Origin: Balanoglossus misakiensis
Taxonomy: Eukaryota; Animalia; Hemichordata
Direction: 5' to 3'
NCBI GenBank assembly: GCA_040954595.2
Contig: CM082580.2
Coordinates: 13,938,242 to 14,002,241, forward strand
Length of the DNA stretch: 64,000 nt
The notes under the pieces are model-generated. The model ran no database searches and was not told where the DNA came from. It saw only the letters and a program-made list of their open reading frames with translations. Both the position numbers and the translations under genes were made by a program. Position 1 is the first letter of the stretch, and the number at the start of each line of letters is the position of its first letter. Below are positions 1 through 64,000 of this stretch, piece after piece.

Positions 1-134
1 CCCATCAAAATCTGTTATGGGCTAGACTTTCTCGACTTTCCAAGTTTTCTATGCTACCCATCCCAGCCCTGTTCGGCAGTATTGTACTATTACTAAAGAA
101 TTTCATTGACACAAGCATGGCCTTAAAATGTTAG

Positions 135-1704
135 CTTTCTAGGACCAATGCTGTATGGTGGCGTTCAAGTGTCCCCTCCCAACGAACACCGCGTCGTCAC
201 AAACCCCTGGCGTCCATGGTGGGAAAGGTACCAGCCGGTTAGTTATCAGCTTGTCAGCAGAAGTGGAGATAGAGCCGCTTTTATTGATATGGTTAACAGA
301 TGTATCGCTAAGGATGTCGTCATTTATACTGATATTGTTATCAATCACATGTGTGGAGAGGGCGGTGAGTGGTCTCCATATTTGACACGCAAGTGTTGTT
401 ATCAAATGTCATATTGTGCGTGGGAGACTTACGCCAAATTTGTTGTCTGCTTTAATCTTTAATTTAAAATTCAACACGAACGATGCTAATAAAGGTAAGA
501 ACACCAAGATTTCTTGCAGTGTGAAGTTTCAAAATTTGCTATTTGTAGTTTTTGCCCCTTTACAGTTAGTGGATATGGCTCCAACAACAACTGGTACGAC
601 ACATCGTACAGTAAGCGTGAATTTCCCGCCGTTCCGTACTCAGAATGGGACTTCAATGATGATATCTGTGACCATAATATAAACGACTACCAAAACGAAT
701 GGGAGGTCCGTAACTGCAAGCTGGTCGGTCTCGTTGACTTGAAATTGTCCAAGAGCTACGTCCAAGACAAAGTTGTTGAATATCTGAATGACATGATAAG
801 CTTGGGTGTGGCTGGGTTCCGAGTGGATGCTTGTAAGCACATGTATCCGTCTGATTTGGAAGTCATCTTCGGCCGACTGAGTAACCTGGTTACCCCTACC
901 TTCCCAGCAGGCAGCAGGGCGTTTATGTTTCAGGAAGTCATCGACCAGGGAGGAGAACCGATAACAGCCGAGGAATACACCCACCTTGGACGTGTGACTG
1001 AGTTCATGTACGGACTTGAACTGAGCAACTGCTTCAAGGGGAATAATCAACTGAAATGGCTGAGCAACTGGGGAGAAGGATGGGGTTTGCTGCCACGGGG
1101 CAGTGCTCTTGGATTCATCGATAACCATGACAACCAACGCAGTCACGGTGGTGGCGGTGATGTTCTTACTCACAAAGAGCCTCGCGAATATAAGATGGCA
1201 GTAGCGTTCATGTTGGCGCACGATTATGGTGTACTTCGGGTGATGAGCAGCTACGAATTTACAGACCCTGACGCGGGACCACCATCTAACCCCGATGGAT
1301 CAACCAAAGACGTAGTCTGTTTCCAAGGAGAATGGGTTTGTGAACACGCCTGGCGACAAATAACAGCCATGGTCTGGTTCCGAAGAGCTGCTGTTGGTAC
1401 CGGAGTTGACAATTGGTGGGACAACAACAGCAATCAAATCGCTTTCTCTCGTGGAAACAAAGCCTTCATTGCTATCAACGGAGATGCTTATACATTAAAC
1501 AGTTCGATCTACACCGGGTTACCAGCTGGCAGTTACTGTAATCTAATCGTAGCCGTGTACGACTCAAATACGAAATCATGCACGAATGCAGAAAACAACG
1601 GCACCCCACACATTGTTACCGTCCAAAGCAATGGGTATGCTTCGCTCAACATTCCCAATAACGGTGACCCAGTAGTTGCTATTCACGTTGAAGCCACAGT
1701 TTGA
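135..1704 (+). CDS. Amy: Alpha-amylase (GH13, animal type), last two coding exons: 135-364 and 566-1704; 5' exons lie outside the window
   Basis: Spliced translation [17 protein letters not shown]...[10 protein letters not shown]...DIVINHMCG|VSGY...; catalytic motifs [16 protein letters not shown] and FIDNHDNQR; chloride-site Arg in LRVMSSY; [10 protein letters not shown]; C-terminal [10 protein letters not shown]. Acceptors at 133-134 and 564-565, donor gtgagt at 365. Confidence 0.97.
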
Positions 1705-2577: not shown

Positions 2578-3220
2578 AAAGTCTCTCTCATGCTGCCCTT
2601 TCCCATTAAGTATGTTTGATACTAGACACCATTGATGTTAAGTACATGTGAATACATGTATATAGTGAATCAACGTTCAACCACAAACAACTTCCATCCT
2701 GCATATAGATGTGAGAGTAAAAATCTCGCCAAAATGAATAAATGGTAAACACTGATTATTCATTTTTGGCTACTTTAGAGTATTCATTTCTTGCCGAAAA
2801 TAATTTTTCATTTACTCATTAAATTCAGGGGGAGGGGGGGGGGGGGGGTCTTTTCAAAATTGTCTTAAAATTAAGACTTTCAAAATGGCCGCCAAATTTG
2901 AGGTTCAAAATGGCCGCCTATATCTGTGCTTAGTCTATGGCATTCAAAATGGCCGCCAAATTTAGTGACTTTGAAAATCTCTATGGTAAACATTATGTAG
3001 AAATTTTACTCATAGTTCAACCACACACACCTTCCATCCCACTTGTAGACGCGAGAGCAAAATGAATATTCGGTGTTTACCATTTATTCATTTTGGCGAG
3101 ATTTTTACTCTCATATCCTACAAACGTGATGATTCACTATAAATCCACATGTGCATTAGCATAGACAGTGTAGTGAATCAAACATAATAAATGGGAAAAG
3201 AAGAGTGAGAGAGAGACTTT
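2578..3220. mobile_element. Non-autonomous foldback/MITE-like element with ~190-bp imperfect terminal inverted repeats
   Basis: 2578-~2765 (aaagtctctctc...gagagtaaaaatctcgccaaaatgaataaatggtaaacac) is the imperfect reverse complement of ~3060-3220. The centre has three caaaatggccgcc copies (2881-2960). TTAA lies close to both ends. Confidence 0.75.
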
Positions 3221-16200: not shown

Positions 16201-18653
16201 TAGCTTGGCACTGCATGGGCTTTAATCTGAGGCTTCAACTTCTAGAGTGCTTATACAGACTGGTGTTTATTTGGAATCAGAACTAAGAACCGGTCGTGCC
16301 AATTCTCTTAACGAAGCTGACAATTCACAAACCCACTTGGCAAAAGATTATAAAATGCCACTGCACACAGTTCTAATCATACCATCATCCATCTTGCACT
16401 TTGGCTTGAGGGCTGATGGTTCAAAGCTATTATTGTAGTTGGCATTTTCTCTATTGCTGAACATTGTCTGCCAATTCTGGTGACCACTCCTTGTTTGAAT
16501 CACTGTCTTTCACTGACTTTCTTTAAATTTGATCTTCTGAGCAATCACCCTTTAATTTCAGTGTCACTTTGAACCATCATCTTCACTGGTGGTGATTTTA
16601 TCATCTCTTTAAGGATCATTATCATCTCCATTACTATCACTGCTGTCTATGTCACCATGACTACTGTCATCAGTGCGAACATGCCTTCTTAAACCTACCT
16701 TTCTTTGGCTTCAATGCACTCAGTTACAGGTAGTACTATCATGTAAAGAAATGAATGAATGATAGAAACTAGGGTATATATCTTAGGTGACATCACTGCA
16801 TTTAATTAAAAATAGAAGATGCAGCAGGTGTTCATTATGCCAATGGTCTTCTCGATGTGACATGTTAATTAACTCGCCCACTTGTTTGATGAATATTTAA
16901 TGAATTTTACTTTTATGTGTAGAATAGTTCTGATTGAGAAAGGGAGTATTTTAATAATGAGTTACTGCGGTCAAATTTTGTTAATTAGATAAATATGTGG
17001 GGTCATTGGTGTGAGATTCTTTGAGAGAAAGTGTTCCCTTTTTCGAGGTATTTCCCCATACTGCCATAGATAGATTATTTTATTTTTCTGGGTTGAAAGA
17101 CTGAAAATAAAACTTACATTGAAAGCACAGATTTAAATTCAGAAAAGCAGCTAAATGCCACATTAATGGCATTGGAAAAAAGTAGAAAACGTGAAATAAG
17201 AAAAATTAATTTTATTGAAGTTATTATTCCAGTTACAATGATTCTTTGTGGTTCTAAAATACATAATAATTGTGGCTAATAATATTTATGATTGTATTTC
17301 ACTTCTTGAAACGTGACAGATTTTGTGTTGGATAAAAAAGACCTATTGACTAGCTGTGAGAAGCCATTTTATATTGTCATGGTACTATCGCAACTGTAGC
17401 TGTCAGATGTTTGGATGTAATCATGACACACTAAAGACAAGGAAAACATAAGAGTCACACAAAAGTTATCAGATGATGAGAAAGTAATTGTCCACTCTAT
17501 TGATTTTGTTTCCCTTGTAAACTGAATTCCATGTAAATCATCTATAGCTACGTGTTCTAATATCTATTTTCTGTCAGTTGTGGAAAAGCAAATCTGGAAA
17601 GACAGTGAGGTATCTTGGATACACTGTCGCCAAAAGACAGTGGTGTGTACATTGAAATCGAACACATCCATTGAGATTAGAGAGCCAATAGCATGTGTGT
17701 TTTGAGCAACATTACATATAAATTGGTGTACACAAAGAGACAGTGTGATTTACAGAATTGCAATGCTGGCAGCGTCCACTTCTGTTCCGTTGGTGCATTG
17801 TTTGGCAGGCGGAGTCTATGCAGAGCAGGTGTTGCTATGGAGACACCTGCAATCGGTTGAAAACCCATGGCGAATAATGGTGGGAACAAAAGTAGTGTGG
17901 TTTCGTTCAAGTAGAAGGTGACCCTTTGATGAATTTTGGAAATTGAAATTCGAGTCTCTCTGTTCTAAAACATTTCGGAGAGAAACTGATGAACACTCTT
18001 TAAATCGCGATCTATTTAGAATGAACAAGCCATGGCTCAGTCACGTAAATTGGACGAACAAATTGTTTTAGAAATGAGAACAGCATCAAAGATCCGTTTT
18101 TATTTAATCAATTGCAACCTGCATTAAGTTGCATGTGTCGGTCGATGTATTCGATTAAATGCATTTTACAAAGCTTGTGATTTTGGAAGATCGAAGCAAG
18201 GGTAAATCTTTATCCAATAACATTGTGACCTATAAAGGAACACGCTATGTTAGAGGTACACATATTCTGCAGGTTGGAAGGGCACACAAGCTGGGTATCA
18301 CCATAACATAACTCCAATGGCAATGCCATACTTTGTGTAATAAGCCTTGTTGCGATCGGGAACTCAAAAACGTTGTAAGCTGCTATGACGCCATGACTGA
18401 ACTCTGAACTGTGACAATGTCCGACGGGTAAAGGCTGTTGCGAGCTACATAAATGTGACCTGAAAAGACAACAGAAATGATTACAGCAAATGGAAATTGT
18501 GTTTCCAAAAAAGTCAAATTTGCAGTATGCTTCTGCACTCTGTGTCTGAACAGACTGGGGATTTTTTTCTGATGGCTTGGAATTTCTTTCATCTGACTCA
18601 GGAGTGTTGGAAAATCGTTACCCACCTTTGCTTGTAACTGTTTTATTGTTGAG

Positions 18654-20880
18654 TTATTTTGAACAGCCCCCAATTGTGGCACACAGTTTGGCTAAAGTTG
18701 CAAGATAAAAAGCTGTCTCTGTCTTCACGGGGTTGTCTCGTTTCACTGCTCCAAATTGTCTCTTCATGTGAGGAGGTCCCCCTGGCCTGTATATGAACTT
18801 GGGCTAGGAGAAAATTGCAAAAGAAAAAAAAAATTAGACTTGCAAATATCTGAATATTCGCCATATAAAATTTATGATTTAAAAAATTATGTCATCAACA
18901 TCAACTTGAAATTGTACCTATCATCGCACCATCTTCTTACTAACGAGCCATGCTTTGGAACATTCAATAGAATAGCATAAATCCAACACAATCCCTTATT
19001 ATACTTTAATTGCCCAGTGTGGCGTATATTGTAATTGTGTCATTAGGTCGTGTAATACATGTCTAACAATTCTGGGAATGCAGAGTATGGCATGAACAAA
19101 TGCAAATGATTAGTTGGAACTCAAATACTGCAACAGAGGCTAGGGGCGTATGGCAGTGAACCTATTTCAAACGTAGGAGATGGGGCAAGCAAAGAAAGTG
19201 GGCGATAGAAGTGGTTTTCAAATATTCTATTTTACGCACGTATTCAGAATTGTACATTTAATTGTTGACAAGTGTTACTGTACGCATAGTTGTGCAATAA
19301 ACAGCGAGACTGAAGCAGTCAATGTGTGGGAAGCTTTTAAAGCAAAACGGTGAATTGTGAGAGAGTATTAGCTTGAGAATGTCTTCCTTATCATTGGACA
19401 CAGAAAATGGGGTGGTCTTATCTCTTATTAGATTTGTTATAGAGAGGAAGGATGACGCTGATTTTCAGGGGTATCAGATCCTAGATGTCTTGTTACACAC
19501 AATGCTTTGCCATACATTTAACCATCTATATAACATCTTTCCTCTGAACAGTGGAAAACGTACCTATCGTTGATGATTGATAAAAACATATTTGACTGAC
19601 AACTAAAAAGGTCTGACCTTTTGAATATTTCGACATCTAAGATACGAAAATTGCAATTGATCAGAGTAATCGACTGTCTAGTCGACAATCTGCTGTTTTA
19701 TTTGGTTTGCGACTCGTCTGGTCACAGTGAAGTAATTCAGGTTTTTTTATGTGTGAAAATTGGTATACGCTTATCGAGTACAGGGACTCTTGTAAGTTGG
19801 TTCTTCCGCAGTTTTGTAGTTCATATCAATATTATTGAGCTGTCATTGGCTATGAAGTAGTTACAAAGATTTCAAGCTGCCCAGACATACCGGTACACAT
19901 ATGTCCACACGACTTTTAACATGTTCGGGAAAATCTCTGGCACAGAAATCGTAGATAAAGGCCTTCAACAGATGAGGATACGATCTACACCGAAATGGCA
20001 AAAATGTGTCCAGAGATACCTCTAATGTCAGTGATGTTAATGTGTCACGTGCCACGGCCTTGCCTGTATCTGATATACACAGTTTTATCAACATTGCAAC
20101 ATTCCAGAAGGAGAAGTATTTAAACACTACTATGGACATCCCCCCAAAATCATCTTGAGTCACAATTGCAACAAAATTTTGGGTCTTGAAGTTAACATTT
20201 TATAAAAAACACAAATGCTGCTTAAAATATGTATTCAATAAGAACTACAGCACCTTACGCATCTTGCGTGGATGGATCATAACAAAGTTCTGCACACTTC
20301 ACCTACGTTAATGGCCCATTTACTTTTACGATTAAACGATAATTTTGTGATCAGTTATAACTGAAGTTGACAGCTACGCAGTTCCATTATAGTCAAGTCA
20401 GGTCATATAATCGATCACTAAAGGTGTCTTTAAACTGAGTTTTTCATGTAGTTACTAGCTTTCCCCCTCTGGCACCATACAACATCCCGAAAAAGCATTA
20501 TCAGCTTTGTTTATATTACACACTGGGAAATTGACTTCAGAAGTATCGGGGCGCTCAACCCTCCTGCCCTGTCATCAGCTCCCGGCATTGTTAGGGCTTC
20601 TTCAGAAGTAATTATTGCATGGATTTTGTGTAGCCATATTTTGAATTTAACAAAAAGGTCCGTTTTAAAGGAGCTGGGTGCGCATACATATGTGTGTGTG
20701 TGTGGGGACGTTCTTTTTACTTACCCTTCCACTATATGGATCTCTTTTGTAAAAGTCAAAGTCATCACCATCAAATTCATCACCTTCAGTTTCATCTTCA
20801 TACAGTGCATTCGTTTGTGGCAACAGTAAATTTAAGATCAGCGTAAAGATTAAGAACACCACCAATAATGTCTTCTTCAT
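18654..20880 (-). CDS. Secreted prepropeptide B1 (101 aa), unknown peptide family; coding exons 20880-20725 and 18803-18654
   Basis: MKKTLLVVFLIFTLILNLLLPQTNA-LYEDETEGDEFDGDDFDFYKR-DPYSGR|PKFIYRPGGPPHM-KR-QFGAV-KR-DNPVKTETAFYLATLAKLCATIGGCSK*. Signal peptide, acidic spacer, three KR sites, gtaagt donor, strong polypyrimidine acceptor, phase 0. Collinear with paralog B2. Confidence 0.88.
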
Positions 20881-26190: not shown

Positions 26191-26825
26191 TGTTGGGACA
26201 TGGGATTGCCCAGAGATGACACTACATCTTTTGTGTCTCAAGTGGGCGGGGGTGTCACATGGTCTGATGCGCAGAGGGAAATCTCTCCCTTTTCTCTCTC
26301 CTTTGCGCAGTCATTCGGAAAACGTGGGGACGTATTTGCCGCGAAACTATCGGAAGTGCTAGAATGAAATAATTGAAATTGAATCAATCTGTGCGCAGTG
26401 GACGAACCCACTAACAACCTTGGAACGAGCATGAATTTCAAGTGAGACACACAGTGCCAGACTTAAAGTCTGCACTTTCACCAAAGAGTTTCCTAATCGT
26501 GTAATTTCCGTGTGGGTATTTTCGTCGATGTAGGGTATCTCGCAGACCTACACCAATAATTGAACACCATGTGCAGATGGGTGTTGTGCTCTCTAACATG
26601 CAGGGAGTCAAATGGCGCGTTTGGAAGAGGATAAAGCTTATTAGGAGAAAACCTCTGAAGCAACGGTAAATTGCCAACTTAATAGAGTTCTAAGTGATAC
26701 ACGATGTCTGATTAATACGTTATCCGAGCTGGGTAGCAAGGAACGTCGAGTTCTTCCAGTTTGGTAGTTTTTCTCGTAGAAATTTTGTCAGTGTTCACCC
26801 CATGAGACGCATTTGTTGTAGTCTC

Positions 26826-28109
26826 ATCGAATGAACAGATGGAGGGTGAAATTCAAATTTTGCCACTTGCGCATGAAAGACATAGTAACGTAATTAACTG
26901 TTCATGCCACTCGATCAAAACGGCTAAAAACCAGCACATCGATGTTGTGAACGTGTAATTTAGAAGCATCTCATTTTCCGGTTAGAAGCAGTTTAAAATG
27001 AAGACATAAGTAAAATAAAAATCGAAAACAAACAAATATATACATGCACTTATTGGTAGACAGTAGAAGATGTGTCCCATGATTTTAATGCATCAAAAAT
27101 ACACTCAAAGAAATAACTTGTATGTAAGATAGATAAATAGAGATTGATCGACAGACAGACAGACAGAAATGCGAAATGGATTTTGTTCTCCTTGTACTTA
27201 TGTTGTAAAACTTTTAAAGCCTGTTGAAACTGTTAGAGCTTCATTGAAGGAAATCGCCTTTGGTTGCTTTTATTGTCAGCTCCACAGGGTATGTTGGAAA
27301 GGTACGTGGGGAAAAAACGAACACATATGAATCTCGCAAACTGTTACCAAAATAAAATGATAATAGTGACTCATATAATTTTTTTACTCGAAAGTGACGT
27401 CAGATATGTAAACTATAAAATCGCACAACCATGTTTAATGAAGCTGAACACATGTCTGGCATGCGCCCTGTGGTAGCTTATGATGTAATGACACAAGAGA
27501 TGACATATAGACAGCCGATGTGATGAAACATACGCAGGTGGGAATACTTTGGCATTATCATGATTATTATCATTATTCATTATTATCGCGTCACTCAATA
27601 GCCGCCTAGCAACGGAAAGAATATTTCAAAAATATGCAATTTATTGATTTCCATGCAGATAAGAGTTCATTGTCTGCAAGATAAAGAACACTTGAAGACA
27701 ATGACGTGATTTGTTCCGAATGTCCCAGCATATAATGACTTTAATTAGGATTTATTTTGTCATTTATTTATCTAATTTCTCGTTAATTTTTTTGTCAGTT
27801 TCTTCAAGGTTTTAATTATACAAATAAAATTAATTTGCATTTATCCATGCATCCAGTAGAGAATATGTCTCGCCATGTCCAATCGGTTGAACAGATGGAG
27901 AGAGAAATTTGAAGGTTGCAATTTGCGCATGAAGAACCTTGTTATAATAAGATTGAGTGGCAGGTTCACCATACATTAACATGATTAAGATTTATTCACG
28001 TGGGTAACTATAAGCTCTACTTTGATTCTTGTGTGGAACTTGTGCAGGTCTTGTTGTGTCCAATCGGTTGAACAGTTGGAGAGAGAACTGTGAAGATTGC
28101 GCTTGAAAC
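26826..28109. repeat. Three dispersed copies of a ~55-60 bp motif (26826-26880, 27876-27937, 28057-28109)
   Basis: Shared (tgtccaatcggt)tgaacag(a/t)tggag...ttgcgc(a/t)tgaa; contains an E-box (CAGATG/CAGTTG), CCAAT in two copies, and TTGCGCAT. Confidence 0.7.
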
Positions 28110-40582: not shown

Positions 40583-41260
40583 ATACATACATACATACAT
40601 ACATACATACATACATACATACATACATACATACATACATACATACATACATACATACATACATACATACATACATACATACATACATACATACATACAT
40701 ACATACATACATACATACATACATTCATACATACATACATTCATACATACATACATACATACATACATACATACATACATACATACATACATACATACAC
40801 ACACACATACATTCATACATACATACATACACACATACATACATACACACATACATACATACATACATTCATACATACATACATACATACATACATACAT
40901 ACATACATACATACATACATACATACATACATACATACATACATACATACATACATACATACATTCATACATACATACATACATACATACATACATACAT
41001 ACATACACACATACACACATACACACATTCATACATACATACATTCATACATACATACATACATACATACATACATACATACATTCATACATACATACAT
41101 ACATACATACATACATACATACATACATACATACATACATACATACATACATACATACATACATACATACATTCATACATACATACATACACATACATAC
41201 ATTCATTCATACATACATACATACATACATACATACATACATACATACATACATACATAC
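40583..41260. repeat. Long (TACA)n tetranucleotide satellite, ~680 bp, with TTCA/CACA variants
   Basis: Direct read; explains the six HTYI/MYVC ORFs at 40384-41417. Confidence 0.98.
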
Positions 41261-42887
41261 ACAGGCAGACGGACAGAATGGTAATTGTTTAATTTATGTT
41301 TTGATCAAAGTGCTATTGCCATCGGAATATTTTTATAGATATGCGAGCTATTGTGAACAGGGTTTTCACCTTTCACAATTTTTAAACGAGCCGAGAAAAT
41401 CGGGTGATACAATGTGATTCACCTTATCACCTTGGATAGAGTAATTTTACACGCCTAAGCAGATAAGTTGTGTTTCATATATCACCAACTGAGAACATAA
41501 CAATGGTACTCCATCAGTATCGGGAGGATTAATAAACTGATACCGGAAATTAGCGCTGTCAGATGTGATTTCGTCCTCGGTGAAATAACAACGTTAGTAA
41601 AATTAATATGTGCGTTGATAGTGACCCACATTTTTTTGTGTTCTCAACATTTCTCATGGTTGCTTATTTCTGTTGTCCAACATTTCGACGTTGAACGTCC
41701 CCGGATGTAGTAGGTTTGAATATTTGCTTGTTCAAAAATGCCCGGATGCAGTTGCTCCATTCAATGCGGAGTAGAACTTGGGGTGATGAGAGAAATTACT
41801 ATGACAACACTTATACCAAAACATTGATTTAATGAACTAGCAACTTCTGCAGTTTACAGTAACATTTACTACACACAGGAAAGTTTTACAATAGTGGCAA
41901 AAGCGTGACAATGAACTCGACAGTCTTGCTGAGTAAATTGTAAGATCAAGAAATTGTCATTGCAGAAAATATCACAACAGCTGTGAACCGCATGTTCAAG
42001 TTGGCAGCGGAAACACTCTTCTGTTGAAGTAGTAACTCTTAAAGTACACATTTTATAAATGAAGAAGTTGCACAAATCAAAAGGGCTGTTCAGTAGCTTG
42101 CAGGTTTTGTTTTCATCTTGGCCAAACCAGGGTGACTGACCATGAAAGTTAAAGCATAAAGTTACAGCTAGTACAGTATTGGAGCTTTAATGAACAATTA
42201 ACATATAGTGGTGTTACTCGACATATTTTACATTGGACAAAGTTTCTTAAAAGTACAGGACAAATTCAGATCTCCTCGTACAATCATGAAGCATTCTCCC
42301 TAAATAAGGGAGTGCTGTGGCTTGATTTTTCTTTCCCACACTTTCTTTCTTTCTTTCCTTTCTTGTATTACATCATACATCAAACTTCCGACATACTTAA
42401 GATGTCTGTGAATTGAAACTAAAAAAATTTCGGCTGAAGATGTGTTCTCTCAAAGTACTTCAGTCTAGGATTTGTACTTCTGTTTCCTTGGGGGACTTTA
42501 GGCATAAATCAAAACATTGAACCAAAATATAATCAACTTCAACTTCAGCAGCCTGTGTGGGATGACTGGGAACACTTGCTTGGTGGAAGTTACATGTAGA
42601 TGGTGGTTAGTTTCGACCTGCAGAGAGACGACAATCAATATAATCCAGTTAGCCATTTTCATGACCCCTACATGACCTAGTACTTCCATTGGAATGATTC
42701 CATCTGATTGACTAAAACTTCTACAAAAACTCCATAATTGCATCTGTAGTCAAAAAAGTATGTCCTGAATTTAAAATTGACTCTTTTTCAAGCAACATAT
42801 ACGTTAAATGTCCCTAAATGTTGAATTATGACGCTTGGGTGTTGTTACTATGACTTTTCTATTAGGAGTAGTCGCCGTGTAACAACC

Positions 42888-43879
42888 TTAAAGCTTACCA
42901 CTTTCCTCCGGGCATTCGAAGGTGGCGCAGTATATTGCTAAGGTTCCTAATTGTATAGCCGTATCAACATCTGTCGGGTCTGGGCGTTTGTGAGCGTCTG
43001 TTGTTCTTTTCATCGGAGGAGGACCAACGATTTGAAAACGATGACGTTGCTTCAGTTTCTGTGAAGAAACAACAAGACGGAGACACTGACAATGATAACC
43101 ACCATGATGAATCACCACGTGACAATTAACACAAAAAAGTCAGAAATTTGTGATTTTGTGTATACTACACTGCCACATCACTTTCAACTTTCCTTACACC
43201 CAAAAATAAGTCTACTATTGATCCGAACCAAGAATGTCTGAAAATGTTAAGTGAACAATGTTATTGTAGTCATACTTCAGAAAGACATCTATGTGTCTTG
43301 AAAGAAGTTGACATTTTTACTGGAGTGAAGGGTAATGACAAAAGGAAGCAGCCGTCTCTAGTCCGTTTTCATCGCTAGTGTGATATATTAACGTCAGTGC
43401 ACGTGTGAGAAAAATGCATGTTTGGCAAGTCCGATTGTGAGTGGGTGTGTGACAAGGACGAGGTGATAAAATCCTTGAAAAAAAGAACACGAAACAATAA
43501 ATTGATAACCAGTTGCACTGTTTTACCTGTGGGCAATCCTCCTGATTTTGTTTTTTGTGTACACCAAATTGGTGTGATCTTAGTAATTCAGTGAACAAAT
43601 AAATGTCCGCCAGAGGAGTATATCATCGGAGGTCCATCAGACGTGTTTTGTCTTTTCCCATGTAAAGTGAAACCGAAGGGAATGGTGAGAATTTAAATCA
43701 ATTTCTTGTTCTTGTCTTACCCTGCCATTTCCCGGGTTTCTTTTAAGAAATTGGAAGTCTTGTTCTTTGAAGTTGTCTGCACCATTGCTGTCTTCGTAGT
43801 GCGCTTGTGCCAGCGGCAAAAGTAAATTCAAAATCAGTATGCCGATGGTGAAAATGACCGCAACGGAAGAAGTGTTCAT
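42888..43879 (-). CDS. Secreted prepropeptide B2 (109 aa), paralog of B1; coding exons 43879-43721 and 43058-42888
   Basis: MNTSSVAVIFTIGILILNLLLPLAQA-HYEDSNGADNFKEQDFQFLKR-NPGNGR|KLKQRHRFQIVGPPPM-KR-TTDAH-KR-PDPTDVDTAIQLGTLAIYCATFECPEESGKL*. gtaaga donor, phase 0. Shares LILNLLLP, YED, DFxFxKR, M-KR-x5-KR and TAxxLxTLAxxCAT with B1. Confidence 0.88.
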
Positions 43880-47565: not shown

Positions 47566-50500
47566 CTACAAGACCGTCCACTGCTGCGACATTTCATCAT
47601 AAAGTTGATCTATCTGGTTCTCAGTTTGTTCCATTTCAGTCAGATACTCATCCGCGCAGAGGTTGCCGTATACACCACTGGACACATCAGCCACACACTG
47701 CTGTGCATTTCCAAATACATCAGGAACACACTGTACTCTTTCGTCCTGGTGGGAAATTGAAAACAAAATGTTACTACTACATGTTTTCATGATTTGACTG
47801 AAATTCACAGAAACAGTGAAATCCATACTTAGACTGACCTGTGTATCTTCAACCTGAGAGGAGTCACTATAATAACCTGAATAAAATCGTAACTTCATGG
47901 CTTCAGGAGTTGATTTGGGATCTGTAATGCATCAATATGAATCAAGATTGATTGCTGTTAATGACATTCAGCTCATTGAAAAAATGAATGCAAGTCTGTA
48001 AAATTACAATGTGTGTTGCCAGTGGTTTTCTAGAAGATGTAATTAATTGAAAAATCAAGCGTGTTAATACTCCTCGTTTGACACCTTTTGTGAAAATTTC
48101 AAAAATGACAATATTGTAACAATGTTTTCAACAAATTCTACATGTAGGGCTATGGAATGTGATAACCACGCACTGCATCTGGGTAGTCATCTACCTTAAA
48201 TAGTTTTGTCAAGTAATTCTGATGCCTAATAATTTGATCCATACCAGAAGTAACTCTTTCAACTACTCGGTCCAACTGATTGCAGGGCTCAGAATGACGC
48301 AGGAGTGGTGCGTCAGAATGGAAATTGGTCATCATGTTTTCAATGTCTTCCATTTCTTTCATGGCTTCTTCTGCATCACTGGTGATGTCTTCCAGAGAGG
48401 CACTGTCTGTGACTGATTAGAAGGAGAGGCATAGGTAGATGTGATACATAGTTAGAATACTCCTCGGATTAAGGGAAACAATGTGGAAACTATGAGGGGA
48501 ATTTAGGTGTGATAAAAAAACTTAAAACATAAAGTCACAGTATTTTTGGTGCCACTTTTTAGTAGACATAATCGATTCAGTATGTATACATTTTACAACA
48601 TAGCAAGAGGTTAAATAAATTTTTCATGAGCAGAACTTTAATTAAATGGCTTTCCAGGAATGCCCTCAAATGCTAGGACTTCTTAAGATTTTCCATGAAC
48701 GTATGGACCCTGTATAAATTACTAGCAGGAAATGCAAGCTCTTCCTGGAAGAACAAGTACTCAAATCTTATCAGCATTTCTCTTCTTTATCACCTTTCAG
48801 TTGGTTGACTGCGAATGGAATTTCTTTTATTTCTTCTGATGTCATGCAAGATTTAGTCGAACCATTCGATTTTGATGTATCAGGCATGACAATGTCGTAA
48901 TTCTTGCCTGCTTTGTACAGTTCATACGGAAGCAAATTTCTGCAGAAAAAAGAAGATATTCAGGCTTTATTTAGACAAAAATTGTAAAAAAAATGAGTGT
49001 TACAACATATCATGAGCAACACTGTTACTGCTATCAAAGTTAAACAGTAGAGCTATCACAGCAGTTAGAAATGCCCAAGAGGATGATACGAACTCCAATG
49101 CCAATGCTACAATACATCAATGTTTAATCAAAATTGAAAGAAAATGTAAGTTTTTCTGCAGACTCTAACCTTTGATAATAGATCTTGGCAGTTTGTGCTC
49201 CAGAGTTCCTTGTTGTGTTTATTCCTGTTGACTGTTTATAGACAGTGGCCCAGGCACCAGGGCTTATGCAAACCTGATTCAACCAAGGCAAGAAAAATAG
49301 TTCAGAATTTTCTGCTTCAGTATGTAGAAATAAAGCAGACTATGCACAGAGATTTCAAAACTGGTCTTGTACTTTCAATGGGTTATTGTTAACACTATGC
49401 TTAAATGGAAAAAGAAAAAAAAATGAAAACCTTACTTTGTGAAAACCTCCACCATCTTGAACAGCTGAGTACAGCTGATACAGATTGACAGATACGCCAT
49501 GCCAGAAAGGCAGTCTTTTTATTGGCATGGCTCTTGTTTTCATGAAATTCAACACTGTCTCCTGGAAAGCTGCTGCTTTTACTTGCCAAGCCTGCAAAAC
49601 AAGAATTGTCTTACCAAAATGTACAAGCATAATTATTTGAAAGACCAAACTTTCCTTGGTGGCTCAACCAGCACATGGAGACAAATGTCACAAAATTTAC
49701 CAGAACAGCAGCAGTAAATGTCTCCTCCTTTGAAGAGTTGGCAAGTGTTGATAAAGATGGACTCCATATATTGAGAGATGACTCTGCCACCATGCCCGGT
49801 TCCTGTAAATGCATGGGGTTATTTTCATGTGGGATACACACTGTCAATTCAACAGATAAATTTCAACTGTGAATTTTTGAAAGCAAAAGGAAATGAACAG
49901 GTTGGCTAATATTACTATATTAGTATACTACTGAATACCTGCTCTGACTGAGTTTCATTTACTTGTGGGATGTCATGAGATGTCAGTTTCTTCTTTGTCC
50001 CCCCACTCCCATCCGCGCAATCCTTGAGTTTACAGCCAGACTTGCTTGCAGACGCCTTCTGTAATTTTCTTTTCCTTTGTTTAGGTACATGTGTAGGTTT
50101 CTCTGTTGGGTCCTGTGATGTTTCCTTCTGTTGGTGGTCAGATTTTGGGTCTGGAATCCCATTGCCTTTATCTTGTGTTTGGGGTTCTTGATACCTGTAC
50201 ACACACTTGCTAAGACGATCACTACAGGATTCTAACACTAGTCTGTCTGCTTCATCTACAGCCTCTTGAAGAGCCTTTCCATTTGCCTGTGAGCAAGATT
50301 TTTCGAAGGGTTTTCTTTTCTTTGTAGATTTCTGTACAGTAGAAAGACAGAGAGAATTTCATGGGTGTTGTTTCAGTTTCTACAGCTGCTTGAGAAGGAG
50401 ATGAGGAAAAATAACCACACACTTACAAATGATTTTGTGCAAAGCTATTTCTGGCCTTGACAACAATATTATTTTCAATCACATCACAGGAATAATTACT

Positions 50501-52221
50501 AAATGCAGTTATTGGGCCAATGGTATTCTCCACACAATGGAAATATTGCAAAAACAATAAGTGAAAAAAAGATTTTTTACACTTTAAAGCACACAACTTA
50601 ATTTTAGAGATATTGCAGGAGAGGCAACGAGTAGCAGTTGTTGGTTAATAAAAGAGTAGGGAATCCTTACAGCTGACTCAGCATTGCTAGAAAATTAATG
50701 AAGCCATTTAATGTCAAATTACATAGTCTACTGAGAAAGATAAGCCTGTTTGACGCATCCAACTTCTGATTGGTTTTTGAGAGAGAGAAGGGGATTATGT
50801 TTCCTGTTGTTTCTGTTTTATTGTACTGACCTATGGCTAGACATAAGTTCATAACTTACAAAAAAGTAAACCTGCAGATTATGAAGGGATTTAGACCAAA
50901 CAAAGGTGTGGTGAAATAGTTCTCACAGAACTGTCTGTCTTGCACAGGTCAACACTTAAATGATATTTTTGAAAATTGTCAGCCTTGACTTACCTTCCCT
51001 TTTACAGAAAAAGCCTGAGTTTTCATCGGCTTCATCCCTTTTGCATAGACTTCCACATTATAGTATAACACCCAGTAGTGTGAATGTCTTCGACCCAGGA
51101 ACTCCACATGGTACCACAAGACGTCACCTTCCTCATCATGACTAACATATGTGTTGTCCTCTGGGGCTGGGCATAATATGGCAGGCCAACTGAGTACAAA
51201 AATGCAGTTTATCAGAGAGCTTGTTGCACTGTTTGGTTGGTCTTGCTCTCCAGAAAATCGAGGAGAGACTGTGATTGAGCCAACAAACCTGATGATGCAA
51301 GTGGAAGATGGATGCAGACATATAAACATTGCTAACTTACCTAACATGCCCTGGCATCCTGGCCCAAACAAGAGAACCCATTGGCAACTGACTATACACA
51401 TATCGATAGCCATACTTCCCAACACCAGATTCATCACATGTCTCTTCTGGGCACTCACATCTGTTGTGCAGCACATCCTGGTTCAGACTACAAAACCATT
51501 GCTTACTCTCGCATAGTTGACTGGCTTCTTTATATGATATTTTTCTCCATTTGAGGCAGCGTTCATTTTCACACTGGACCCAAGTTTGGTCTGTCACCTG
51601 TGTGAATGAACACCACTTTCAATTTTCATTAATAATGTCACAAAAAATCGTTGAACATTTTTGGGTAACAAACCTCTACATCACTGGGTTCAACAACTGT
51701 GGTAGGATGAAAATTAATGTGTACTAAGACTAAACAGCCAGTCGCTTCATAAATTAATCTTTTTTGGCTCATAAATCAAGACAGGAATATATATCTTGTT
51801 AACATTACCTTTTTGCTGTTTTCTGGATCAGCAATAGGGTTGTTGTTACCATCAGAGAATTGGCTTTCACTTTTTTCATTTGGATTGACACAAGATTCCC
51901 TCTGTAGTATATGCGGTGATGCACTAACTTCCAACAGCTCAGTTGTTTGACGCTCTATATGTAAAGGAATAAATCACATGCCTTCAAAACAGGTATGTAG
52001 ATCTGTTGTAGCTATAACTTTGGGTTATTTTGTGCATTTCACCATGATGAAATGTCCACTACTCTCCTGGTAATGGACATTTCGGATATGTTTCAGTGAT
52101 GAAGAGAAGATTTGTCACGAGCAGCAAGATAAGAAAAAAGTCAGAAACTTTAAAGGAACACTAAAAACACCTGTCTTGAGAAAAAACACAAACCTTTTCG
52201 CGTTTTACTTCTAGTAATCAT
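47566..52221 (-). CDS. ZCWPW2: ZCWPW2-like zf-CW + PWWP chromatin reader with a C-terminal ARID domain (multi-exon)
   Basis: Predicted exons 52221-52194, 51954-51809, 51597-51341 (CW: WVQCENERCLKWR...WFCSLNQD...NRCECPEE; VYSQLPMGSLVWARMPG), 51189-50994 (PWWP: SWPAILCP...YHVEFLGRRHS), 50331-~49939, 49802-49701, 49591-49436, 49273-49170 and 48939-48794 (ARID: FMKTRAMPIKRLP...VNLYQLYSAVQDGGGFHK|VC...WATVY...YYQR|NLLPYE), 48412-~48167, ~47921-47566. The 3' exon borders are uncertain. Confidence 0.8.
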
Positions 52222-61955: not shown

Positions 61956-63844
61956 TTTCTGCCACCAACTCACCACATGTATACAACATTGCTACTTTAA
62001 ACATTTTGAGATAATTACCTTGTTTTTGAATTCCTCATCCTTAACATCTGGTAGATTGATCATAACATTGTAGTAAGCTCCCCATAAAGCTGTTTCCAAT
62101 GCACGTGCTCCGACCTATCATGAGATTGAAAGTCAGCAATCTTGTTAGATGGGTGCTATCACATCTCAGCATGTCTCTTCATGTGTGTACTACAAACTTT
62201 ACATCTTGCACCTGCAGAGGCTACACATATACAATAGTATGTGCTTTCCTACCTGTACATCTGACCTGCATTGTATATTTCCCTTGACTGCCAATTCTTT
62301 CATGGAGGGCCAGCATTTGTTTGTAGTCACAGCTACATGCATGGGCACAGCCACGGCTGTCTTCAGTGAGGATTGCATACACTGTTCTCGACTACGTGGA
62401 AAAGACAACACATGAGAAATGTTCAGTGACAAAGGTTTTCAAATTATTATCTTTCCTGGTCCTCCTACCCCAACCACATACAGTCCTTTGAGCCTTCAGC
62501 TCCTGGAGTCTGAAGGTTTTCAAGTGGTTGTACTTGCATATTACATTTCACTCAAAATCAATCAACAGAACATTTGTTTCTATGCATGCCACACTCAATA
62601 GGCCTATACTCACACAAGCATTTCTTCATCTGATTTCTTTGGTAATTTACAAGCAGCCTGTAAGTCAATCAGAATATCATCCATAGATTAGTGTTATCTC
62701 CCCCTTCTCTATACAGTGGTGACCTTCCTTGTTATGTTTACAGGTCATAGTCTATAAACTTTGTAGTCTAGTTATTACTGCATATATACAGAGCTTGCTT
62801 CTCATCTCAGGTTTCTGGTTGTGAACCCAATCACCAAGTGCAGCGTTGTGAGCTTGGCTGGGTGTGTTGAATTCACTCACCATATACTGGTTGAAAGCTG
62901 TGGTGTCTGCATCCACCATGGGGATCAACTCATGCATGGCTTGGTGCAATGGAGGAATGAGTTTTCTCATCTCTTCTTCCAAGGGATGGAATTTCTTGTT
63001 ACCGTATGTCATCCAGCCGACCATGCTTCCAAGTGCTGCACCCTGTGTGTTGGACAAAGGTTCTTTATGTGTGTTGTATCTGGTGATAGTCAACCTTTGT
63101 ATAAGAATGTGCTTGTACAAGCAGATCTCATTGTCCCCAGATCATGTTTTTTCACTGTGTTGGAGTGGCCTCGACAAACTCTGCGCTGTGATTTGACAAC
63201 TTACCATTGACCCAATGGCTGCAGCTGCAGAGCCTCCACCAGGTGCTGATGACCTCGCCCCAATGTTCAGAACAAATGATTTGACACTCATTGACACCAA
63301 TGGACCATCACTGTCATCACGGATCATGTACCTGACAAATACACAATGGACAGCAGTGATTGTCTGGCAATAGATGTTGTGTGACTCTCTGCCTTTAGTC
63401 AACAGTCAGGAAGTCAGACTTTGGTTGTATGTTTATTTTGATGCAACTGTAACTACTGGTGGAAAACCCCTCTTTGTCTGTGTCTGTGTGTATTCAAAAT
63501 CTGGGTTTCATCATTGAACTTTGACCTGTCCATACTTACTCTATAATTCTCTCTTTAGGGTTGAATGAACCAAGCGAACCAAGTCCAAGTCTGTTGACAA
63601 CCTGTCAGAATAGGAGTAACAATAATGATATGAGCAACAGGTGAATAACTGATAGGAATGAGGGATCCTCATGTGACATTTTTGCAGGATTATTGATATT
63701 TGGAACTCTTACCAGTCTGATTTTCTGGTCTTCTTCCAGAATGAAGAGATTTTCTTTTTCACAGTAATAGTCTGCAGCCATCATTATGGCTTTCAGTGGC
63801 ACCAAACCGACCACCTGGGAACCACACACAGCCCAGTTGAGTTC
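61796..63844 (-). CDS. FTCD: Formimidoyltransferase-cyclodeaminase, 3' exons: 63844-63713, 63601-63540, 63331-63205, 63042-62881, 62657-62614, 62391-62253, 62114-62019, 61895-61796; 5' part outside the window
   Basis: [12 protein letters not shown]...ENLFILEE...NRLGL...FNPKERIIE; [18 protein letters not shown]|[14 protein letters not shown]; [12 protein letters not shown]; [21 protein letters not shown] are FTCD cyclodeaminase motifs; GT-AG introns in consistent phase. Confidence 0.96.
61905..61952. repeat. (AAT)n(CAT)n compound microsatellite in the last FTCD intron
   Basis: Direct read. Confidence 0.9.
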
Positions 63845-64000
63845 CTGCTCAATGAAATATGAACAAGAGAGATCTCGAGTTAATTAGGAAACTCAGAAGT
63901 GAGGAACACAAAGAAAACATTATATACCACACTCACAACAATCTTCAGGACAACCACCACTAAGTAACACGCACTACACTCACACCCACTCCCTTCAAGA

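What the first reader, a model, noticed from the sequence alone, without database searches (positions are those of the whole stretch)
18657..18737. Family B C-terminal peptide with a small disulfide loop at its C-terminus
B1 DNPVKTETAFYLATLAKLCATIGGCSK versus B2 (42983-42891) PDPTDVDTAIQLGTLAIYCATFECPEESGKL: 10 of the first 21 positions are identical (P, TA, L, TLA, CAT). These two Cys are the only ones in each precursor, spaced C-x5-C and C-x4-C. The M-KR-x5-KR spacer is conserved in length but not sequence. A helix followed by a C-terminal ring differs from calcitonin (N-terminal ring) and from the somatostatin/allatostatin-C and MCH ring sequences. It recalls the 'Rana box' topology of frog antimicrobial peptides, but these peptides are not strongly cationic. 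Each B precursor would release at least two unrelated peptides.
Basis: partly seen in the sequence, partly recalled or inferred. Interest (0 to 1): 0.7.

Follow-up and report, generated by a model that had tools for sequence, protein, structure and literature searches.

The report
New acorn-worm helix-and-loop prohormone family
This acorn-worm genome stretch holds two copies of an unnamed gene, shared with two other acorn-worm species, whose predicted secreted precursor would be cut into several peptides, the best-conserved being a predicted helix ending in a likely small disulfide loop that most likely acts as a hormone or neuropeptide and fits no known family tested here.

Summary
B1 (18737-18657) and B2 (42983-42891) end two clean gene models with two coding exons each. 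They match at 10 of 21 positions (0 of 20,000 shuffles) and carry their precursors' only cysteines. The neighbouring amylase places the window in an acorn worm. Three RefSeq 'uncharacterized' proteins (Ptychodera flava; two Glandiceps talaboti isoforms) share the layout: signal, acidic spacer, KR, Arg-rich peptide ending G-[PV]-P-x-M, KR, 5-6 residues, KR, last peptide. In 5 of 5 precursors the first Cys is residue 19 of the last peptide, but ring size varies (x4, x5, x5, x5, x6). The helix, not the loop, is the fixed part. The last peptide is the most conserved segment (22 of 27 B1/P. flava) and is not consistently cationic, which favours a receptor ligand over a Rana-box antimicrobial. The Glandiceps isoforms differ only in the last part, implying alternative terminal exons. 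Defining motifs of somatostatin/allatostatin-C, MCH, bombesin and calcitonin were not met. Processing, disulfide, expression and receptor are inferred, not shown. Verdict: a real, apparently undescribed enteropneust prohormone family, testable against hemichordate receptors whose ligands are still unreported.

The parts
18657..18737 (-). B1 last peptide (27 aa): predicted helix, Cys19 (18683-18681) and Cys25 (18665-18663), C-x5-C
   Evidence: 22 of 27 identical to P. flava P0121; helix predicted
18738..18764 (-). B1 KR (18764-18759), 5-residue linker (18758-18744), KR (18743-18738): predicted convertase sites
   Evidence: three KR sites in 5 of 5 precursors
18765..18803 (-). B1 exon-2 part of the first peptide, ending G-P-P-H-M; acceptor AG after a pyrimidine tract immediately upstream of 18803
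18654..18656 (-). B1 stop codon TAA; an AATAAA starts at 18647 (its use as poly(A) signal is untested)
18804..20724 (-). B1 phase-0 intron, 1921 nt, GTAAGT...TAG; no convincing internal exon
20725..20880 (-). B1 first coding exon (52 codons): hydrophobic signal peptide (about 25 aa, cut site judged by eye), acidic 19-mer (net -10) ending F-D-F-Y, KR (20748-20743), first 6 residues of the first peptide; acceptor 23 nt before the ATG implies a non-coding leader exon
   Evidence: tblastn of P0121 E 4e-21
42891..42983 (-). B2 last peptide (31 aa): Cys19 (42929-42927) and Cys24 (42914-42912), C-x4-C, 7-residue tail, net -5
42888..43058 (-). B2 second coding exon: Arg-rich peptide ending G-P-P-P-M (to 43011), KR (43010-43005), linker, KR (42989-42984), last peptide, stop
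43059..43720 (-). B2 phase-0 intron, 662 nt, GTAAGA...CAG
43721..43879 (-). B2 first coding exon (53 codons): signal peptide, acidic spacer, KR (43744-43739)
   Evidence: 50% identical to B1 exon 1

Best explanation
B1 and B2 are duplicated acorn-worm genes for a predicted secreted prohormone that would be cut at three conserved Lys-Arg sites, releasing an Arg-rich peptide and a 27-31-residue last peptide with a predicted helix and a likely Cys-Cys loop, which most likely signals through a G-protein-coupled receptor. Shown: gene models, coding constraint, homologues in two other enteropneusts, fixed KR sites and fixed first Cys. Inferred: signal removal after about residue 25; convertase and carboxypeptidase processing; an intramolecular disulfide (the only two Cys lie on one peptide); receptor contact made by the N-terminal Pro cap and the hydrophobic helix (positions 10-12, 15, 16, 18), with the variable loop acting as a C-terminal cap or tuning element rather than as the pharmacophore. 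A helical ligand of this length would fit a secretin-type (class B) receptor better than a somatostatin/MCH-type one (receptor-class generalisation recalled). B1 is the orthologue of the P. flava protein; B2 is a diverged paralogue.
For: Canonical GT-AG phase-0 introns at the same place in both genes. Codon-position identity 23/24/12 of 35. A profile of the two last exons found 4 proteins at E<=0.001 among 1.84 billion representatives: two full-length homologues (P0121 P. flava E 3e-15; P0123 G. talaboti E 4e-7) and two repeat proteins judged chance. A wider profile returned 3 of 2153 candidates, adding G. talaboti isoform X1, P0125. In 5 of 5 precursors: exactly three KR, exactly two Cys, first Cys at residue 19 of the last peptide, G-[PV]-x-x-M before the second KR. 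B1 versus P. flava identity by segment: last peptide 22/27, signal 16/25, acidic 12/19, first peptide 12/36, linker 2/6. The two Glandiceps isoforms share residues 1-53 ending in Arg, where window exon 1 ends (52 and 53 codons, ending in Arg), which independently supports the splice point. The nearest ESM Atlas clusters of P0121 include several prohormone families (DH31-like 0.87, PDF 0.84, galanin, NPS, UTS2B, NPFF, NPY 0.82), all under 0.9 and leads only. PC2 is expressed in S. kowalevskii neural territories (PMC10508912, passages).
Against: There is no transcript, peptide or receptor evidence for the window's genes. The homologues are predicted RefSeq models whose RNA support I did not see. 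Structure models are weak (mean pLDDT 59 and 66, pTM 0.22 and 0.31). Only 1 of 5 last peptides carries an amidation signal (P. flava, G-K-stop), whereas most class B ligands are amidated (recalled). High conservation does not prove ligand status: conserved non-ligand domains occur in neuropeptide precursors (orexin 'cryptic' domain, PMC5860471, passage). Paralogues diverge strongly (B1/B2 11/31, B2/GtX2 7/31). Among the Atlas neighbours only 3 of the ten best share a family, so no receptor class is indicated by it, and rank 2 was a non-hormone micropeptide family.
Confidence: 0.6

Rival explanations
1. The Arg-rich first peptide (ending G-[PV]-P-x-M) is the ligand, and the Cys-pair last peptide is a conserved folding or sorting domain of the precursor with no receptor of its own.
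For: The last five residues of the first peptide are conserved in 5 of 5. Conserved non-ligand precursor domains are known (PMC5860471, passage). In the starfish bombesin precursor a similar KR-bounded C-terminal stretch was not detected as a mature peptide (PMC12002301, passages).
Against: The last peptide is freed by its own KR in 5 of 5, has a fixed 18-residue distance to the first Cys, and is more conserved than any other segment. The first peptide varies from 17 to 36 residues.
Confidence: 0.15
2. Host-defence precursor, convergent on frog skin peptides: an acidic propiece masks a Pro/Arg-rich peptide and a helix with a Rana-box-like loop.
For: Signal + acidic spacer + KR layout; rings of x4 or x5 in 4 of 5 match the Rana-box spacing (PMC6280737, passages); first peptides are cationic, +2 to +8; tandem duplication is common in defence genes (recalled).
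Against: Last peptides have net charge -5 to +3, a K+R fraction of 0.03-0.16, one basic residue across five rings and a low helical moment of 0.19-0.44. Identity of 22/27 between species whose amylases are 75% identical is unlike fast-evolving antimicrobial peptides (recalled). The second Cys is followed by 1-7 residues.
Confidence: 0.12
3. A rearranged, non-amidated relative of bombesin-type precursors; the first peptide would be the ligand of hemichordate BN-type receptors.
For: By-eye register match: echinoderm BN precursors have R-x-x-G-P-x-x-G before KR, while family B has G-[PV]-x-x-M before KR in 5 of 5, with a basic residue three places before the Gly in 3 of 5. B1's last peptide matches the starfish precursor's residues 65-81 at 5 of 16 ungapped positions (by eye); the A-x-Y-[IL]-A-x-L motif is in 2 of 5. 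S. kowalevskii has putative BN-type receptors, and the passages read name no hemichordate precursor (PMC12002301).
Against: The peptide is not next to the signal peptide, there is no Gly amide donor (0 of 5) and no PRXN (0 of 5), and there is one phase-0 intron instead of a phase-1 intron in the peptide. The paper reports residues 65-81 as not highly conserved in a second starfish. The match was picked after the fact from many families.
Confidence: 0.07
4. A highly diverged somatostatin/allatostatin-C-type precursor; the last peptide is the missing ligand of hemichordate SS/ASTC-type receptors.
For: Two Cys at the precursor's C-terminal end and a single phase-0 intron upstream, as in SS/ASTC genes (PMC7536072 section 3.3). 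PMC8851493 (passage) states that hemichordates have the receptors but that precursors had not been identified.
Against: FWK/IWK and F-x-P are absent in 5 of 5 last peptides, and 4 of 5 rings have no aromatic residue. Ring size and content vary while the upstream helix is fixed. A single phase-0 intron is a weak character; here it lies mid-precursor.
Confidence: 0.06

Closest known systems
P. flava XP_070566472 and G. talaboti LOC144434453 isoforms X1/X2 (XP_077979027/8), all 'uncharacterized'
   Same: Same family: full layout, three KR, two Cys, first Cys at residue 19; on contigs of the same length as those holding the best amylase matches, so probably the same chromosome.
   Different: P. 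flava has a longer first peptide (36 aa), a 6-residue linker and a possible C-terminal amide. Glandiceps has two last parts on one annotated gene, where the window has two whole genes. Accession numbers do not show close linkage to amylase.
Somatostatin / allatostatin-C / MCH precursors
   Same: Two-Cys peptide at the precursor's C-terminal end; phase-0 intron (SS/ASTC).
   Different: No FWK, FXP or C-[MI] motif; ring of 4-6 small residues; 18-residue conserved helix in front; an extra conserved peptide upstream.
Starfish orphan precursors Arnp22, Arnp23, Arnp24 (PMC4772807, passages)
   Same: Ambulacrarian KR-bounded peptides with a Cys pair (C-x4-C in Arn22/23; C-terminal position in Arn24) and no known receptor, so small rings have precedent.
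   Different: No RGW ending (0 of 5); one Cys peptide per precursor, not two; full sequences were not compared.
Rana-box antimicrobial peptides (brevinins, nigrocins, esculentins)
   Same: Signal, acidic spacer, KR; helix followed by a C-x4/5-C loop.
   Different: Not consistently cationic or amphipathic; Cys not terminal as encoded; multi-peptide precursor; no sequence evidence of common ancestry.
Bombesin-type precursors of echinoderms
   Same: Arg-rich peptide with Gly-Pro five residues before KR; intron inside that peptide; weak likeness of a later hydrophobic stretch.
   Different: Not adjacent to the signal, not amidated, intron phase 0 not 1, Cys pair present.
Apelin (likeness recalled, compared by eye only)
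   Same: Arg-rich, non-amidated peptide with Gly-Pro near a hydrophobic C-terminal residue, most evident for B2's first peptide.
   Different: No Pfam match; apelin receptors lie in a vertebrate-specific clade (PMC10792014, passages); family B carries a further peptide after it. Convergence is more likely.
Calcitonin/CGRP gene (alternative last exons, recalled)
   Same: Glandiceps isoforms share the first part and swap a paralogous peptide cassette.
   Different: Ring is C-terminal, not N-terminal; no Pro-amide.

Membership tests
Neuropeptide/peptide-hormone precursor (general kind) | N-terminal signal peptide | tested here: met
   Hydrophobic core, 11-residue mean hydropathy 3.41 (B1) and 3.06 (B2), and small-residue cut site; judged by hydropathy and eye, no dedicated predictor run
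Neuropeptide/peptide-hormone precursor (general kind) | Conserved dibasic cleavage sites bounding conserved peptides | tested here: met
   Three KR in 5 of 5; last peptide 22/27 B1/P. flava
Neuropeptide/peptide-hormone precursor (general kind) | Processed, secreted peptide that activates a receptor | not testable with these tools
   Needs peptidomics and receptor assays
Somatostatin/allatostatin-C | [quoted passage not shown] | tested here: met
   5 of 5; definition PMC8851493 passage
Somatostatin/allatostatin-C | [quoted passage not shown] | tested here: inconclusive
   One phase-0 intron, after codon 52 of 101 and 53 of 109, mid-precursor
Somatostatin/allatostatin-C | FWK/IWK or F-X-P motif between the cysteines | tested here: not met
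   0 of 5; one aromatic residue in five rings
MCH | Met/Ile after the first Cys; basic residue penultimate to the second Cys | tested here: not met
   0 of 5 for both; definition PMC4772807 passage, which also lists a separate S. kowalevskii MCH precursor
Calcitonin | Two Cys in the N-terminal region; C-terminal amidated Pro | tested here: not met
   First Cys at residue 19 in 5 of 5; definition PMC4772807 passage
Bombesin/GRP | Peptide adjacent to the signal peptide | tested here: not met
   18-19 acidic residues and KR intervene in 5 of 5; definition PMC12002301
Bombesin/GRP | GPXXG amide donor and PRXN motif | tested here: not met
   0 of 5 each; Met stands where the Gly would be
Bombesin/GRP | Phase-1 intron inside the peptide | tested here: not met
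   The intron is inside the first peptide but phase 0 in both window genes
Rana-box antimicrobial peptides | Two Cys four or five residues apart | tested here: met
   4 of 5; definition PMC6280737 passage
Rana-box antimicrobial peptides | Second Cys at the C-terminus | tested here: inconclusive
   0 of 5 as encoded; 2 of 5 (P. flava, Glandiceps X2) would be terminal after inferred trimming
Rana-box antimicrobial peptides | Cationic amphipathic helix | tested here: not met
   Net -5 to +3; moment 0.19-0.44 over residues 8-19
Rana-box antimicrobial peptides | Antimicrobial activity | not testable with these tools
   Bench assay needed
Apelin/Elabela | Sequence homology to the apelin family | tested here: inconclusive
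   No Pfam family at E<=10 for window exons and only a weak ETRAMP match for P0121, but short queries are insensitive; no apelin sequence was on hand for direct alignment
Apelin/Elabela | APLNR-type receptor in the same organism | not testable with these tools
   No genome held; PMC10792014 passages place the receptor group in a vertebrate-specific clade
Starfish Arnp22/Arnp23 | C-x4-C with C-terminal RGW | tested here: not met
   RGW 0 of 5; x4 in 1 of 5

The most novel reading that the evidence does not exclude
Family B is a dual-ligand prohormone that fills a known gap in deuterostome peptide signalling: its helix-and-loop peptide and/or its Met-ended peptide activate hemichordate somatostatin/allatostatin-C-type or bombesin-type receptors for which the papers read report no precursor. 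It would do so with a ligand design unlike any described for those receptors, and the cassette would be switched by alternative last exons in Glandiceps and by gene duplication here.
Probability: 0.13. Interest if true: 0.8.

Novelty: new variant of a known kind. Interest (0 to 1): 0.5.

Why it matters
Hemichordates are a key outgroup for tracing chordate hormones, and their peptide inventory is thin: PMC8851493 says outright that ligands for their SS/ASTC-type receptors are missing. A conserved precursor family with fixed cleavage sites gives defined peptides that can be synthesised and screened against cloned acorn-worm receptors. A helix closed by a small C-terminal loop of variable size is an unusual design for an animal signalling peptide. 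If the family proves enteropneust-only with its own receptor, it is a solid but specialist addition.

Tried and rejected
No whole genome is held. No RNA run was listed, so splicing and expression could not be read; this is no evidence either way. The word-indexed search with the two last exons among longer proteins scored 0 of 44 candidates, although P0121 and P0125 lie in that length range: these searches miss true relatives, so the lack of Saccoglossus or echinoderm hits is not absence. P0122 and P0124 are unrelated repeat proteins and were left out of all counts. Pfam: 0 families for 8 window pieces, and nothing above a curated cut-off for family A exons or the homologues. PDB sequence searches: 0, 0, 7 and 1 weak matches, none a peptide hormone. 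Fold searches: Foldseek 0 matches; VIA-align best Z 2.9 among 48,161 chains, generic helices. Atlas search of B2 exon 2: best 0.76, uninformative. A possible third B copy at 28663-28631 (blastp E 0.008) scored E 8.9 with the five-sequence profile and had no blastn match: rejected as chance or unprovable. A missed middle exon in B1, suggested by the longer P. flava peptide: none found at strict settings, and one unrelated Cys-containing candidate at relaxed settings. Microsynteny from accession numbers: not shown. A urocortin/CRH likeness of the Asp-Asn-Pro start and of family A (recalled) got no Pfam or PDB support, and the peptides are shorter and mostly unamidated: dropped. Three look-ups in earlier findings returned nothing. 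No complex prediction was run, as no binding partner is claimed.

Full report
Setting. The window is animal DNA of about 38% G+C. The long amylase exon at 499-1701 has its best matches in three acorn worms (P. flava 75%, S. kowalevskii 72%, G. talaboti 71%); further hemichordate paralogues follow at 61-63% and the next taxa at 56% or less. The source is therefore most likely an enteropneust hemichordate other than those three. No genome and no RNA run were available.

Observation. Ten of the first 21 residues are identical, a score that 0 of 20,000 shuffles reached. Across the 35-codon ungapped block, identity by codon position is 23, 24 and 12 of 35, as expected of protein-level constraint.

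Gene models. A scan for hydrophobic starts and splice sites gives each peptide an upstream exon. B1 is 20880-20725 joined to 18803-18654; B2 is 43879-43721 joined to 43058-42888. Both introns are GT-AG and phase 0, and both ATG exons have an acceptor 23-27 nt upstream. The precursors (101 and 109 aa) read: signal peptide, acidic 19-mer, KR, basic peptide ending G-P-P-x-M, KR, five residues, KR, last peptide. Each has two Cys, both in the last peptide. No third B exon and no convincing middle exon were found in the window.

Homologues. A two-sequence profile searched against 1.84 billion representatives gave 4 hits at E<=0.001. Two are full-length precursors, from P. flava (XP_070566472) and G. 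talaboti (XP_077979028), both named 'uncharacterized'; two are repeat proteins that I dropped. A broader profile returned 3 of 2153 candidates, adding G. talaboti isoform X1. The homologues lie on contigs of the same lengths as the best amylase matches, which suggests the same chromosome, not close linkage. An earlier word-indexed search missed these proteins, so the lack of Saccoglossus or echinoderm hits is weak.

What is conserved. In 5 of 5 precursors there are three KR sites and two Cys, and the first Cys is residue 19 of the last peptide. P3, L12, L15, A16 and C19 are invariant. The ring is x5 (B1, P. flava, Glandiceps X2), x4 (B2) or x6 (Glandiceps X1), with tails of 1-7 residues. Between B1 and P. 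flava the last peptide is the most conserved segment (22/27, against signal 16/25, acidic 12/19, first peptide 12/36). AlphaFold2 predicts a helix over residues 3-22 of the B1 peptide, with pLDDT 83 in its core but 66 overall; the P. flava precursor model has the same helix at low confidence. The helix is hydrophobic rather than amphipathic (moment 0.19-0.44), and net charge runs from -5 to +3.

Alternative last exons. The two Glandiceps isoforms share residues 1-53 and then carry different paralogous cassettes, each with its own Met-ended peptide, linker and Cys pair. The break falls where window exon 1 ends. This supports the splice model and suggests alternative terminal exons, although a merged annotation of tandem genes cannot be excluded without the genome.

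Mechanism. Most likely a regulated-secretion prohormone. Signal removal, cutting at KR by PC1/PC2-type convertases and carboxypeptidase trimming would release an acidic peptide, a free-acid Arg-rich peptide, a short linker and the helix-and-loop peptide, with Cys19 bonded to the second Cys. PC2 is expressed in S. kowalevskii (PMC10508912, passages). Only the P. flava peptide has an amide signal. I infer a GPCR ligand that binds through its helix, the loop capping the C-terminus. Everything after the gene model is inference. The Atlas's nearest named clusters for the P. flava protein are mostly assorted prohormones, all below 0.9, which is a lead only.

Known families. Pfam, PDB sequence and fold searches named no family. 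Tested motifs fail for somatostatin/allatostatin-C (FWK/IWK, F-x-P), MCH, bombesin (position, GPXXG, PRXN, intron phase), calcitonin and starfish Arnp22/23 (with definitions). Small C-x4-C rings in ambulacrarian orphan precursors have precedent (PMC4772807, passages). The Rana-box spacing is met in 4 of 5, but charge, amphipathicity and conservation argue against a defence role. Two partial likenesses remain open as receptor leads. One is the C-terminal Cys pair plus phase-0 intron of SS/ASTC genes, whose hemichordate precursors PMC8851493 reports as not yet identified. The other is the Gly-Pro register of echinoderm bombesin, whose receptors S. kowalevskii has (PMC12002301). An apelin likeness of the first peptide is recalled and compared by eye only; apelin receptors are placed in a vertebrate-specific clade (PMC10792014).

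Literature seen. Ten searches were seen as listings with abstract starts. The motif search listed 9 papers, none by title on neuropeptides or hemichordates. Read as passages: PMC10508912, PMC6188537, PMC4772807, PMC10792014, PMC8015242, PMC5818035, PMC8851493, PMC5860471, PMC6315173, PMC6280737. PMC7536072: passages and section 3.3. PMC12002301: abstract, passages, supplement passages and one of ten supplement parts. I found no description of this family in these. Jekely 2013 and Mirabeau & Joly 2013, whose supplements may list Saccoglossus precursors, were not held under the ids tried, and figure alignments are not searchable, so novelty is probable, not certain.

Verdict. A real, conserved and apparently undescribed enteropneust prohormone family: a new variant of a known kind. 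Interest 0.5; about 0.8 if it proves to be a ligand for one of the unassigned hemichordate receptors (probability about 0.13).

Noticed in passing
window 7046-6882 + 4884-4753 (A1) and 37049-36885 + 35717-35586 (A2), minus strand: A second pair of secreted-precursor gene models (98 aa each) with the same two-exon, phase-0 layout, one KR site and a 28-29-residue amphipathic C-terminal peptide without Cys (moment 0.53 and 0.63; A1/A2 similarity 0 of 20,000 shuffles).
   Followed up: partly
window 43879 to 4753, minus strand: Gene order B2, A2, B1, A1 suggests tandem duplication of a B-A pair. A D-P-x-D-V start is shared by A1, A2 and B2 last peptides, but A-B similarity is weak (314 and 722 of 20,000 shuffles for B2, none for B1; B1/A1 exon 1 0 of 5,000), so common origin is unproven.
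   Followed up: partly
P0123 and P0125 (G. talaboti LOC144434453): Two annotated isoforms share residues 1-53 and carry different paralogous peptide cassettes: likely alternative last exons.
   Followed up: partly
window 20763-20743 and 43759-43739, minus strand: The acidic spacer ends in a conserved [DE]-F-[DEQ]-F-[YL] before the first KR in 5 of 5 precursors; it could be a third bioactive peptide or a convertase recognition site.
   Followed up: no
window 28663-28631, minus strand: An 11-codon stretch resembles the B2 linker region (blastp E 0.008) but is not significant with the family profile (E 8.9); chance or a decayed relic.
   Followed up: yes
window 127-1701, plus strand: Alpha-amylase gene with one very long coding exon; best matches in enteropneusts.
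   Followed up: partly
window 47569-51618 (minus), 56149 onward (plus), 62755-63883 (minus): Exons of an ARID + CW-zinc-finger gene (PF01388, PF07496), a TMEM98-like first exon (label recalled) and a formiminotransferase-cyclodeaminase gene (PF04961).
   Followed up: partly
window 40583-41261; 2708-3117; 26811-28100: A 170-copy ATAC microsatellite, a 59-nt inverted repeat with 95% complementary arms 292 nt apart (possible small transposon), and three copies of a 53-66-nt direct repeat.
   Followed up: no
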